From Macrostomum lignano (lineage: Eukaryota): a DNA stretch of 64,000 nt. The stretch covers positions 1-64,000 of the forward strand of contig NIVC01002009.1 of assembly GCA_002269645.1 (NCBI GenBank). The letters run 5' to 3'. Position numbers and translations under genes: made by a program. Under the pieces are notes generated by a model that saw only the letters and a program-made list of their open reading frames with translations, did not search any database and was not told where the DNA came from. Below are positions 19,001 to 21,671 of the stretch, piece by piece; within the stretch, counting starts at the first letter, position 1; every line of letters starts with the position of its first letter.

Positions 19001-21671
19001 TCTGTTATAGCGAATATGAGCCACGTTGACGATATTTTGGAAGAATTGCTGGGCGGAGCCCTGTCAGATAGCGACCTGTCAGAAGACGAAGCACCGAGAC
19101 AGCCGGCTCCAGCGCCAAGACCGCCGACTCCGCCGCCCGCTCCAGCTCCAAGACCGCCGACTCCGCCAGCCCCGAGCGCGTCAAGCCCGCGAGAGAGACC
19201 GTCAGCATCAGCGGAGATCGAGGCACCATTACGTTGCTCAACACGACCAAAGCTTCCAGGAGACTCCAGCAAGCGGCCGAGGCCGCCATCGCCAACGTCG
19301 AGCCAACGACTGCAGGTGGACGGGCCGACACCACCGAAGCGGGCAGCCATCCTGCAGGCCGCCGCCGCTGCTCCTGTGCGAGTTTATGCGGCACCTTCGA
19401 GTCAAGGATCGGCAGCCAGCAGCGCAGCATTCGAGCGACGGACAGTTCAGCTCCAGCCCCCAGCAAGTGCTCCACCATCGGGGCGACGCCAGCATGCCGC
19501 AGCCGCCGTCGTTACACCTCGCCAGCAGGCCGCCGCCGCCGCTACACCGCGCCAGCAGGCCGCTGCCGTCGTTACACCGCGCCAGCAGGCCGCTGCTACA
19601 CCTCGCCAGCAGGCCGCCGCCGCCGCTGCACCGCGCCAGCAGGTCGCCGCCGCCGCGCCCCGTCAGCAGGCCGCCGCTGCCGCTGCACCACGACCGCCAC
19701 GACCTGAGCTCGCAGGAAGCTACCAGGAGGTGGCACAACGCCTCATCGAGACAGGCGAGCCGGTCGAACGAGTTCGTTTCGGCCTGATGCAATATTTGCA
19801 GCGCATCGGCCACTTGCGCTTAGATCAAGCGCTGCCGCAACGTTCGCAGGCTTGGGCCGCCATCAGAGCGCTGCGCGAACTATGCTCATCAACCGAGGCA
19901 GTGGCGCTTCTCCAGCACATCGCCGAAGAGCTCCAGCGCATCATGAGAGCTGATTCTCAGGTAACCCAGCGACGCCTACTAAACATTGAATTGCGGTGGA
20001 TTTTTGGCCTCCTAGGCTGGCCCTATTTTCGTGAACTCCCGAACCCTTGCAAATTCTAGGCAGGTTTTCTTATTACCGGTGTGCTTTTCCGATCGTTTCC
20101 GTCGTATTTTTCTATGTTGTTTCTAATCTTCCAAATCTAGTTTACTAGTTTTTCTGTTTTATTCAATGGTAATTGCCACACATGATCTATCACTTTACTG
20201 CTTATCCGATTGTTTTGTTTTATGCCTTTATCACATAATTTTGTGCCTAATACTTTGCTCATGACTATTGCACGTAGTATTCACAAATTGTTTAGTTTTT
20301 AGCACTTCGTTTATGCACCTTTTCTTGCATTTTAAAATTTTTGCACTCGCATACTTATAGTAGACTGTAGTAAGCTCGTTTAAAAATTTTTTTTTAGGGG
20401 AGGCAGGTTGTAAAGGGCCCCTCCCGATTTCTTTCTAAAAATAGCTATCGGTTATTACATTTTAAATTCACGCCAAATAACTACGACGCATTTTGTTTTA
20501 CTACTCGTATTTTTGATAATATTTTACGCGAATTAATTTTTGTTAAAAATCTAATAGAATTTTACTATAAATACAGGCAAATTTGGCGGAGGGAGAAGCA
20601 ACCTCGCGCATCGCGGTTCAATAATACAAGTTGATAGCAATTAATAAGAGTTCCGAGAAAATAAGAATTGAAGAAGTGTTTTTCTGTGTTAATTCCTTTT
20701 AAGAAGTAAGAGTGAAGTAGACCGAAGCATATACAGCACATACTACTGAGAAGCAGCAGTGTTGAGTAGTAAGAATACGAAGTAGATCTGAAGTGATACG
20801 TGTAAGAATAACCGGAGGCTGTGACCCTCTGATCTCGGTAACGCCCAAGGACTTGCACAGTACATGGAATACATATACCAGTATAGCCAATAGACCACTC
20901 AGGCCAAAAGTACAGTAAACGCTACCAGAATAACGGAATAATATACTCAGACAAATTCTAAGAAACATTTATCGGATTATTCTAAGATTGATAAACTCAT
21001 AATTTATTAATGGAATAATCCTGGTGGCAGCTACCAACTTAATAAGAACACTTAAGAGATTAGTAAATTAGCCCTGTAACAGCTTTTGGTGGCTAATCGG
21101 AGGAATTTTGTATCGCACAGGAACACCCCTAGTACAACTTTGGTGTCAGCAGTTGAGATTTAAATAGAGAGAACCATAACCACTATTACAATTTGGTACC
21201 AGCAGTGGGATAGCTAAAGAGGGAAGCAAACCCCCTATCACAATAAACCTAGGTGAAATCTATTTCTTGATTTAAAATAATTTTTAGGCCCCTGTATTTT
21301 TTCAAGAGCTAGGGCCTAGCTCTTTCAATTAGGTCAACTTACACTTAAAGTGTTTTTAGAATAAAGTCTAGTTTTTGATATGACATTTATTGTTGGCTAA
21401 AATTAATATAAGCAATGATAATTTCTGTTCTTATTTTTAATCTTAGGCCTACTCCTGAATGTGACTGTGACATTTAGATTTATCATTTGAATTTTGATAG
21501 GCCTAGTATCATATCATCTAGTCTTACTCATGAATAATTTCCAAAAAATGGTCTTACCTCTGTCAGAAATTTTGTAACATCATAGACTTTGTCATGTATT
21601 ATGATCCAACAGCTCTCTGGTGTTTTGTGTTCCTCAACTTCTTTTTTGGATATCTGGCGCAAGATGGTCAT
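13055..21671 (-). CDS. CYB5: Cytochrome b5, tail-anchored, 2 exons (21671-21558, 13327-13055), 128 aa, 8.2-kb intron
   Basis: [49 protein letters not shown]...[17 protein letters not shown] with both heme-ligand His, and a C-terminal TM anchor. Phase-0 GT-AG intron. Confidence 0.96.
15295..16128 (+). repeat. 5' LTR
   Basis: Direct repeat of 20409-21242 (offset 5114); TATA-like TATAAAT at ~15452. Confidence 0.97.
15908..16150 (+). other. Array of five tRNA primer-binding-site-like motifs, four preceded by an LTR-end-like TRNNACA; the last (16133-16143, TGGTGGCAGCG, tRNA-Leu type) is the PBS used by this copy
   Basis: TGG-starting motifs at 15908, 15973, 16027, 16080 and 16133; ACA ends at 15967, 16022, 16076 and 16128. 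Confidence 0.85.
16309..16899 (+). CDS. gag: Gag-like protein (196 aa) with a degenerate zinc knuckle
   Basis: First ORF after the PBS; capsid-like ..[19 protein letters not shown]..; CFFCGKPGP knuckle remnant. Confidence 0.8.
   Translation: MANANDAIARLAEELTKKLGLGTEKQVEIEKYTPDKNIRQWINAFEQQCRMQGLNGEKRKVALFANLDIPEELKRRMSHKQDQQHYQDIRRQVIEQFERKQQKQEENGVQALVECLMTLTVILTNLNLEQKSEQQQQYKYQTAPKSRPPHRFSGARPEPSPGHCFFCGKPGPIRPQAGHRCRVNLGEARQRAQEKG
17950..18552 (+). pseudogene. Decayed integrase/pol C-terminal remnant
   Basis: Open stretch 18325-18552 encodes an acidic tail ending RPHYNLRPR, typical of Gypsy pol ends. Upstream frames are broken, with only weak SKVV(H)-like traces. Confidence 0.5.
18764..18930 (+). 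promoter_or_regulatory. Putative internal Pol II promoter for the cargo ORF
   Basis: Tandem TAGCAAC RFX half-sites (18764-18782), CCAAT (18799-18803), CACGTG (18849-18854), TATAAAT (18924-18930); ATG at 19016. Confidence 0.6.
19016..20059 (+). CDS. Unknown 347-aa cargo protein of the LTR element (acidic N-terminus, Pro-rich region, (T/A)PRQQAAAA repeats, helical C-terminal domain)
   Basis: Intact ATG-to-stop ORF forming a sharply bounded GC-rich island between the pol remnant and the PPT. Confidence 0.8.
   Translation: MSHVDDILEELLGGALSDSDLSEDEAPRQPAPAPRPPTPPPAPAPRPPTPPAPSASSPRERPSASAEIEAPLRCSTRPKLPGDSSKRPRPPSPTSSQRLQVDGPTPPKRAAILQAAAAAPVRVYAAPSSQGSAASSAAFERRTVQLQPPASAPPSGRRQHAAAAVVTPRQQAAAAATPRQQAAAVVTPRQQAAATPRQQAAAAAAPRQQVAAAAPRQQAAAAAAPRPPRPELAGSYQEVAQRLIETGEPVERVRFGLMQYLQRIGHLRLDQALPQRSQAWAAIRALRELCSSTEAVALLQHIAEELQRIMRADSQVTQRRLLNIELRWIFGLLGWPYFRELPNPCKF
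20396..20407 (+). other. Polypurine tract
   Basis: AGGGGAGGCAGG immediately before the 3' LTR. Confidence 0.85.
20409..21242 (+). repeat. 3' LTR (contains all four att/PBS modules)
   Basis: Appears identical to the 5' LTR by eye, and the ORF-track peptides are identical; ends TATCACA followed by the TSD. Confidence 0.97.

What the first reader, a model, noticed from the sequence alone, without database searches (positions are those of the whole stretch)
19016..20059. Intact unknown cargo gene in the env position of a pol-less LTR element
Seen: a 347-aa uninterrupted ORF, although the pol next to it has decayed. It has an acidic N-terminal helix ([16 protein letters not shown]), Pro-rich repeats, six (T/A)PRQQ(A)n repeats and a ~110-aa predicted helical C-terminal domain. 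There is no signal peptide, so it does not look like env. Inference: its retention suggests selection for an accessory function, such as an anti-silencing factor, chromatin or RNA binder, or condensate former. The TP repeats could be proline-directed kinase sites.
Basis: partly seen in the sequence, partly recalled or inferred. Interest (0 to 1): 0.78.

Follow-up and report, generated by a model that had tools for sequence, protein, structure and literature searches.

The report
Swappable flatworm retrotransposon accessory gene
A family of flatworm jumping genes carries, where viruses carry a coat gene, a conserved extra gene with no match to any known family; many versions of it are swapped between complete and enzyme-less copies, and its product likely works in the nucleus, probably switching on the element's own transcription.

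Summary
The 347-codon ORF is real. It is the third gene (ORF3) of a Ty3/gypsy clade, with 145 matches in G000; named relatives point to Macrostomum lignano. It is under purifying selection (dN/dS 0.04-0.25). Conserved parts: an acidic N-terminal helix, a basic central motif and a five-helix C-terminal domain (pLDDT 90) with no known family or clear fold match. The PRQQ/TP repeats are not conserved. Pol did not decay: the copy belongs to an old pol-less lineage that has a selected 196-aa mini-Gag and a non-coding spacer. By gag, pol-less and pol-bearing copies form two clades; by ORF3 they are mixed (at least 8 changes; AU p 9e-7). ORF3 plus U3 therefore moves as a cassette, and very different versions sit on near-identical pol. 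A TATA box lies 92 nt upstream. Best reading: a nuclear trans-activator resembling foamy-virus Tas (0.4); rivals are an RNA-export adaptor (0.25) and an anti-silencing factor (0.2). No function was shown, and transcription is only hinted at.

The parts
15291..15294 (.). Target-site duplication ATAA, left copy (right copy 21243-21246)
   Evidence: sequence, flanks printed
15295..16128 (+). 5' LTR (TG...CA), identical to the 3' LTR; short AT-rich U3, TATA box at 15452, two TTGTT words 73 and 26 nt before it; three PBS-like units in U5 (15908, 16027, 16080)
16133..16143 (+). Primer-binding site (tRNA-Leu-like is recalled, not tested)
   Evidence: same word behind the 5' LTR of most relatives examined
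16309..16899 (+). Mini-Gag, 196 aa: 36% identical to the N-terminal 149 aa of the autonomous Gag, then a variant knuckle C-x2-C-x11-H-x-C; marks the pol-less lineage and is under purifying selection
16900..18328 (+). Non-coding, A-rich spacer of the pol-less lineage, not derived from pol by any match found; the word AAGGGCCGTTTT stands at 17049, 17222 and 17382
18329..18554 (+). Last ~75 codons of pol (integrase tail), no start codon; the junction region where pol-less copies join the 3' part of autonomous partners
18790..19015 (+). Predicted internal promoter and leader of ORF3: CCAAT at 18799, conserved word GGTCCAGTTTT at 18900, TATAAATA at 18924-18931, initiator-like bases about 30 nt further on
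   Evidence: sequence only, no start site mapped
19016..20059 (+). ORF3, 347 aa, the finding
19016..19090 (+). Acidic, Leu/Ile-rich N-terminal helix (activation-domain-like or export-signal-like)
19220..19453 (+). Conserved basic central region (EAPLR..TRP, KR, KRAA..Q...PV), mostly disordered in the model; NLS-like
19514..19687 (+). Six PRQQ-poly-Ala repeats; variable linker, not conserved between ORF3 types
19718..20056 (+). Five-helix C-terminal domain of no known family
20396..20407 (+). Polypurine tract
20409..21242 (+). 3' LTR

Best explanation
ORF3 is a selected accessory gene of a flatworm Ty3/gypsy clade that moves with U3 as a swappable cassette between autonomous and pol-less copies, and it likely encodes a nuclear protein, predicted to be made from its own internal promoter, that probably activates the element's LTR in trans. 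Shown: family membership, selection, a three-part conserved build, cassette exchange, and loss of ORF3 from some young pol-less copies. Inferred: (1) the CCAAT/TATA promoter makes a separate ORF3 mRNA that ends in the 3' LTR; (2) the basic motif takes the protein into the nucleus; (3) the five-helix domain, perhaps with the central motif, finds the element's DNA or nascent RNA; (4) the acidic helix recruits host coactivators and raises gag-pol RNA output, as foamy-virus Tas does. Pol-less copies would borrow pol and, being co-packaged, pick up the partner's ORF3-U3 end by template switching.
For: Build: the first 30 residues have net charge -7 to -11 with 6-10 bulky hydrophobics in 25 of 25 representatives, and a KR motif sits in the centre in 19 of 25; K86-R87 is invariant in 15 of 15 and the equivalent pair in 30 of 30. 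No membrane segment. Promoter: TATA 72-106 nt before the ATG in 12 of 25 types against 4.2 expected from upstream windows, kept across otherwise unrelated upstream DNA. Selection acts on the N-terminus, centre and C-terminal domain. Action in trans fits two pol-less loci with 99-100% identical mini-Gag but no ORF3, one with identical LTRs (L109, L110). ORF3 type and U3 type go together: 21 of 22 pairs with domain identity of 90% or more share U3, and 0 of 328 pairs under 60% do. Precedents: Tas from an internal promoter (PMC4411673, passages); Grande gene 23, nuclear, with its own promoter (PMC7264820, passages and reference title).
Against: No known DNA-binding family or fold was recognised, and the domain is only mildly basic (net 0 to +9). 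13 of 25 types have no TATA in the tested window, including a whole deep subclade. The related family B has a splice-acceptor-like signal instead. The N-terminal helix fits an export-signal pattern in 19 of 25 types against 8.7 in shuffles, which suits the RNA-export rival equally well. ORF3-U3 co-segregation is expected from physical linkage alone. Tas carries its activation region at the C-terminus (recalled), here it would be N-terminal. No run is on record as RNA and no start site was mapped.
Confidence: 0.4

Rival explanations
1. ORF3 is a Rev/CERV-like adaptor: the N-terminal helix is a CRM1 export signal, the basic centre and the helical domain bind the element's genomic RNA, and the protein carries unspliced RNA out of the nucleus.
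For: Export-signal patterns (recalled regexes) match the first 35 residues in 19 of 25 types against 8.7 in shuffles, and the stricter class 1/2 patterns in 15 against 7.8; five of six TATA-less deep types match class 1d. Family B, a probable remote relative (hhalign E 0.002, probability 13%, 92 columns), has a branch-point/pyrimidine/CAG signal just before its ATG in 5 of 5 examined, so splicing may be in play. CERV of Cer1 is a precedent (PMC10309623, abstract and passages).
Against: Any amphipathic helix tends to match these patterns, and the window's own protein matches only the loose class 3. In the window's group the upstream AG is not conserved and a TATA promoter is, so no splice and no obvious need for special export. 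No splice joint into ORF3 among the joints listed (contigs only).
Confidence: 0.25
2. ORF3 blocks host silencing (piRNA or chromatin) of its own family, and the many old versions are kept by an arms race with the host.
For: Very different ORF3-U3 cassettes sit on nearly identical pol: L050 vs L053 pol dS 0.04 but ORF3 dS 1.5 and dN 0.49; L067 vs L046 pol dS 0.08 but ORF3 dN 0.44. Such a pool of versions suggests diversifying or frequency-dependent selection. Nuclear-type build.
Against: No pair shows dN/dS near or above 1; no site model was run. Swapping could be driven by U3 or by escape of the RNA sequence from small RNAs, with ORF3 carried along. No likeness to a known suppressor.
Confidence: 0.2
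3. ORF3 acts in competition among elements (exclusion, copy-number control, or help in particle assembly or integration), possibly together with the mini-Gag.
For: The pol-less lineage keeps a selected mini-Gag (dN/dS 0.08-0.35 in the 16 of 36 estimable pairs, 15 of them at most 0.15) and has taken on at least five partner ORF3 types.
Against: ORF3 versions that differ at half their residues sit on Gag and Pol that are 92-99% alike, which argues against a tight fit to an element protein. Some young pol-less copies lack ORF3.
Confidence: 0.1
4. ORF3 is passively captured host DNA or an env remnant.
For: High GC content against an AT-rich element; env position.
Against: Strong purifying selection between types; present in 14 of 18 further elements picked by RT alone; no membrane segment; no host gene found as a source.
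Confidence: 0.03

Closest known systems
Maize Grande gene 23 and other additional ORFs of plant Ty3/gypsy elements (PMC7264820, passages and a reference title seen)
   Same: Accessory gene between pol and the 3' LTR, conserved in most copies, nuclear protein, own promoter, function open.
   Different: Gene 23 is antisense and in plants; ORF3 is sense, in an animal, shows no sequence likeness to any Pfam family, and is exchanged as a cassette.
Foamy-virus Tas (Bel1) (PMC4411673, passages)
   Same: 3' accessory gene made from an internal promoter, activating the LTR: the working model here.
   Different: No sequence or fold match found; no env; activation and DNA binding are shown for Tas and untested for ORF3.
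CERV of C. elegans Cer1 (PMC10309623, abstract and passages)
   Same: Novel nuclear protein of an animal Ty3/gypsy element, with an NLS and a candidate export signal.
   Different: CERV is 517 aa, comes from a spliced mRNA sharing exons with gag, and has three folded domains and a Cys loop; ORF3 has one folded domain and, in this group, a predicted promoter.
Oikopleura Tor env from an internal promoter (PMC4402516, passages)
   Same: Third gene of an animal LTR element driven by a promoter in or behind pol.
   Different: Tor's product is a membrane glycoprotein; ORF3 has no membrane segment.
Non-env ORF3s of bdelloid LTR elements (PMC5408684, passages)
   Same: Modular third ORFs of several kinds in an invertebrate.
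   Different: Those are recognisable GDSL, DEDDy, coiled-coil or TM proteins, expressed by splicing; this one matches none.
Gag-only non-autonomous LTR elements, e.g. RLG-Quinta with Cereba (bioRxiv 10.64898/2026.03.01.708851, passages); TR-GAG (recalled)
   Same: Pol-less element keeping a gag; modular exchange by template switching.
   Different: Here one old mini-Gag lineage repeatedly shares a whole accessory gene plus U3 with different autonomous partners.

Membership tests
Ty3/gypsy LTR retrotransposon (non-autonomous member) | LTRs TG...CA, PBS, PPT, target-site duplication | tested here: met
Ty3/gypsy LTR retrotransposon (non-autonomous member) | Autonomous relatives with gag (CCHC) and pol in the order PR-RT-RH-IN, RT closest to Ty3 | tested here: met
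   L031 shares 18329-20933 at 95% and an identical C-terminal domain protein
Gmr1/Osvaldo, Mag or CsRN1 clade | RT placement against reference elements | not tested
   no reference RT sequences were held; the tree has only own-genome rows
env / env-like ORF3 | Signal peptide and transmembrane anchor | tested here: not met
   highest 19-residue hydropathy 0.31-1.11 in 25 of 25 types, N-terminus strongly acidic; no dedicated predictor was run
env / env-like ORF3 | Fusion-protein fold | tested here: inconclusive
   no match at E <= 0.001 in PDB or BFVD; the model is a small helical bundle
Tas-like transactivator | Own internal promoter | tested here: inconclusive
   TATA at the expected distance in 12 of 25 types vs 4.2 expected; no start site mapped
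Tas-like transactivator | Acidic activation region and nuclear localisation | tested here: inconclusive
   sequence features present; activity not measured
Tas-like transactivator | Binds and activates the LTR | not testable with these tools
   needs reporter and binding assays
Tas-like transactivator | Homology to Tas | tested here: inconclusive
   no Pfam, PDB or BFVD match
Rev/CERV-like export factor | Leucine-rich export signal | tested here: inconclusive
   19 of 25 vs 8.7 in shuffles; amphipathic helices inflate this
Rev/CERV-like export factor | Spliced subgenomic mRNA and RNA binding | tested here: inconclusive
   no such joint listed in four contig sets; acceptor-like signal only in family B; binding not testable
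Captured host gene | Host homologue outside LTR elements | tested here: inconclusive
   none found; 17 of 60 fetched loci had no recognisable gag or RT and look like element fragments

The most novel reading that the evidence does not exclude
These flatworm retrotransposons encode their own family-specific activator with an undescribed five-helix recognition domain. Activator and U3 form a lock-and-key cassette kept in many versions and traded between pol backbones, and an old pol-less parasite with its own mini-Gag has repeatedly taken over the cassette of whichever autonomous family is active: a complex-retrovirus regulatory design reached independently in an env-less retrotransposon.
Probability: 0.25. 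Interest if true: 0.85.

Novelty: new variant of a known kind. Interest (0 to 1): 0.62.

Why it matters
Transactivators made from internal promoters are a mark of complex retroviruses, and few animal LTR retrotransposons have an accessory protein with a known job (CERV is one). A conserved, unclassified domain with dozens of natural versions, each tied to its own U3, offers a ready-made specificity test in an animal with transgenesis. The trading of ORF3-U3 between backbones also means that RT-based family counts miss the unit on which selection seems to act, and RT-based mining misses the pol-less mini-Gag lineage altogether.

Tried and rejected
Family and homologue searches that found nothing usable: Pfam on the ORF, on 30 domain rows and on 30 full-length rows; three word-indexed searches; two Atlas searches; PDB by sequence (best E 0.21); Rfam on the element. 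Fold searches: no Foldseek match at E <= 0.001 in PDB or BFVD; best VIA Z 7.4 (rmsd 2.4, 83 aligned, AppA SCHIC/cobalamin-cap bundles) and 7.2 (KaiA), below the level at which helical bundles mean anything. Pol II CTD-interacting domains, Foldseek's top rows, scored Z 5.0 or less on re-alignment and were dropped. A weak tblastn likeness of the domain to the RT of L067 (E 0.002) vanished in the profile comparison (E 0.24). The third ORF of family D in the 60%-RT sister clade is not detectably related. P0006-P0008 are repetitive proteins and were set aside as chance; 6 of 9 hits were kept. The full-length model did not fold the central motif onto the domain. The U3 TTGTT word is near the internal promoter in only 3 of 15 types, so no shared LTR/internal response element was found. 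The 3' UTR control was uninformative. Expression: no RNA holder listed; contigs cannot show starts or levels; no check against a silent stretch was obtained. A complex prediction of the central motif with host H2A-H2B was not available, so that idea is untested. Four gene ids of relatives were not found in paper texts or in the supplements of PMC12801592 and PMC7806878; those of PMC5946080 could not be read and may hold expression data. The region-wise script stopped after 3 of 7 pairs.
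Full report
Observation. The ORF runs 19016-20059 on the + strand and gives 347 residues without a stop. Its acidic start, Pro-rich stretches, six PRQQ units and lack of a hydrophobic segment are as described. It lies in a 5.95-kb element with identical LTRs (15295-16128, 20409-21242), a 4-bp target duplication, a primer-binding site and a polypurine tract. The element sits antisense between two exons of a host cytochrome b5 gene. The statement that pol has decayed is wrong. 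Eight long pol frames from relatives match only the last ~75 codons of pol at 18329-18554, and RT and integrase queries find nothing. The stretch 16900-18328 is a non-coding spacer shared with other pol-less copies.

The family. The C-terminal 114 residues have 145 matches among 150 scored candidates in G000, from 100% down to about 30% identity. I fetched 10 kb around 60 of the 145. Of these, 24 carry RT, 19 are pol-less with a short gag like the window's, and 17 are fragments or unclear (one partial RT hit, L089, was moved to 'unclear'). The autonomous copies read gag, PR-RT-RH-IN pol, ORF3, and their RT is closest to Ty3 among solved structures. To avoid circularity I also picked elements by RT alone: 14 of 18 with no hit still carry the domain by profile, and the four misses are interrupted or carry another insertion. 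ORF3 is thus standard equipment of this clade. A profile search of 1.84 billion representatives gave 9 hits: five named Macrostomum lignano proteins, one unnamed Logan cluster and three repetitive proteins set aside. The Logan protein is at most 46% identical to anything in G000, so the family exists beyond this assembly; its 251-aa member has the same build without repeats. The species is inferred from these names.

Selection and build. In the C-terminal domain dN/dS is 0.04-0.25 in the 11 of 22 pairs with estimable dS; the other 11 are synonymously saturated at pN 0.09-0.34 (Nei-Gojobori counts). By a rough rule ORF3 is open in 26 of 40 pol-bearing and 13 of 19 pol-less copies, while pol is full-length in 18 of 40 (the rule misses at least one open copy, and assembly errors may add breaks). 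Three parts are conserved. First, an acidic hydrophobic N-terminal helix, net charge -7 to -11 over 30 residues in 25 of 25 types. Second, a basic central region, mostly disordered in the full-length model. Third, a five-helix domain predicted at pLDDT 90 and pTM 0.84 from 30 sequences. The linkers differ freely in length and repeat unit; PRQQ appears in 5 of 25 types, and the linker has the highest pN in all three pairs examined. The TP-kinase-site idea therefore has no support. The domain has no Pfam, PDB, BFVD or Atlas match, and its best structural neighbours are generic bundles at Z 7.4; this shows neither a new fold nor a function.

Cassette exchange. In the gag tree the 20 pol-less and 20 pol-bearing rows split on one branch with 100/100 support. 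In the ORF3 tree of 44 rows the same labels need 9 changes, at least 8 forced by well-supported branches, and holding the pol-less rows together is rejected (AU p 9e-7). Matched pairs share nearly identical DNA from the pol tail through ORF3 into U3: window/L031, L047 and L049/L048, L052 and L054/L053, L045/L046, L070/L079. Autonomous elements trade too: L050 and L053 are 95% identical from gag to the end of pol (pol dS 0.04) yet differ at dN 0.49 in the ORF3 domain; L067, L046 and L079 behave alike. Breakpoints fall at several places between the pol tail and the ORF3 start, as template switching between co-packaged RNAs would give (inferred). The direction of each transfer is not shown. The pol-less lineage is itself old and selected: its 196-aa mini-Gag has dN/dS 0.08-0.35 in the 16 of 36 estimable pairs and keeps a variant Cys/His knuckle in 9 of 9 aligned. 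Two pol-less loci with 99-100% identical mini-Gag have lost ORF3, one with identical LTRs, so ORF3 is not needed in cis.

Expression. A TATA box lies 92 nt and a CCAAT box 217 nt before the ATG. Across 25 types TATA stands 72-106 nt upstream in 12, against 4.2 expected from further-upstream windows; it is missing from the tested window in 13, including a deep subclade. No public run is on record as RNA. Contigs of four runs guessed to be RNA, from four studies, cover parts of ORF3, in places without a difference, but they also cover much of the rest of the element, and contigs show neither start nor level. Gene models exist for relatives. Transcription is plausible, not shown.

Wider context. 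Among 18 elements at about 60% RT identity none matches the profile, but most carry a third ORF of their own. Family B (7 of the 18; 85 matches among 93 scored) has an acidic helix and a C-terminal domain that aligns with ours over 92 columns at E 0.002 and probability 13%: a probable but unproven relative, preceded by an acceptor-like signal. Family D is not detectably related to A or B; family C was not compared by profile.

Mechanism. An acidic hydrophobic helix, a basic NLS-like motif, a compact folded domain, a separate promoter and action in trans are what a self-encoded activator would need; foamy-virus Tas is the model (PMC4411673, passages). ORF3 type and U3 type travel together (21 of 22 close pairs share U3, 0 of 328 distant pairs), as a lock and key would, but linkage predicts the same. 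U3 also keeps two TTGTT words about 70 and 27 nt before its TATA in 16 of 17 types and a TTC-n3-GAA palindrome in 11 of 17 (words chosen after inspection), around a variable core; these may bind host factors or ORF3. I give this reading 0.4. The same N-terminal helix fits export-signal patterns in 19 of 25 types against 8.7 in shuffles, so a CERV-like export role gets 0.25 (PMC10309623, abstract and passages). The pool of old versions on shared backbones suits an anti-silencing arms race (0.2), though no pair shows positive selection. None of these was tested directly.

Known and new. Accessory 3' ORFs with their own promoter are known from maize Grande (PMC7264820, passages) and Oikopleura Tor (PMC4402516, passages), non-env ORF3s from rotifers (PMC5408684, passages), env-like third ORFs from Schistosoma elements (PMC2582038, passages), and modular gag-only elements from plants (bioRxiv 10.64898/2026.03.01.708851, passages). 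I found no description of this gene in seven full-text searches. The recent survey of this species' LTR elements has no occurrence of 'ORF' in its text or five supplements (PMC12801592: first sixth read, term searches, supplement 1 read) and mines by RT. Its earlier classification paper was not seen and could mention extra ORFs. The scan had no note on this protein; it has notes on a different, J-domain third ORF in the same genome (not checked).

Verdict. A real, selected, unclassified accessory gene in a swappable cassette, plus an overlooked mini-Gag lineage; function inferred only. New variant of a known kind; interest 0.62.

Noticed in passing
window 16309-16899: Mini-Gag of an old pol-less lineage: N-terminal part of the capsid region plus a variant Cys/His knuckle, under purifying selection, with some 39 near-full-length matches in G000. 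It could be a capsid modifier, a decoy or an RNA-capture protein.
   Followed up: partly
window 15890-16143: U5 holds three PBS-like units in tandem with LTR-end-like words before the true PBS; one or more are seen in 14 of 23 LTRs examined.
   Followed up: no
window 17049, 17222, 17382: The word AAGGGCCGTTTT, one to three times, marks the spacer of nearly all pol-less copies and is almost absent from autonomous ones; a possible packaging or protein-binding signal.
   Followed up: partly
window 18477-18500; pol ends of L048, L050, L067, L081, L086: Integrase ends in a Y-N-(L/T)-R motif that recalls the chromatin-binding motif of foamy-virus Gag (recalled, not tested).
   Followed up: no
L119-L121, L124, L125, L128, L130: Family B third ORF in a sister clade, probable remote relative, with an acceptor-like signal before the ATG.
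   Followed up: partly
L111-L118, L122, L123: Two further third-ORF families (C and D) on nearly identical RT; D has an acidic N-terminus, a helical domain and an RGG-rich tail; some elements carry both; no Pfam match.
   Followed up: partly
window 13058-13330 and about 21558-21650 (- strand): Two exons of a host cytochrome b5 gene flank the element, which lies antisense in the intron.
   Followed up: yes
window 23912-24643 (- strand): ORF with a Mab-21 C-terminal-like match (E 1e-5), next to an unannotated 325-aa ORF at 24807-25784.
   Followed up: no
L109 (G000:C1833): Tandem array of at least three ORF3-less pol-less units sharing LTRs, about 4.6 kb apart.
   Followed up: partly
L105, L106: A transposase-like ORF (by eye, mutator-type) sits where ORF3 would be in two older copies.
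   Followed up: no
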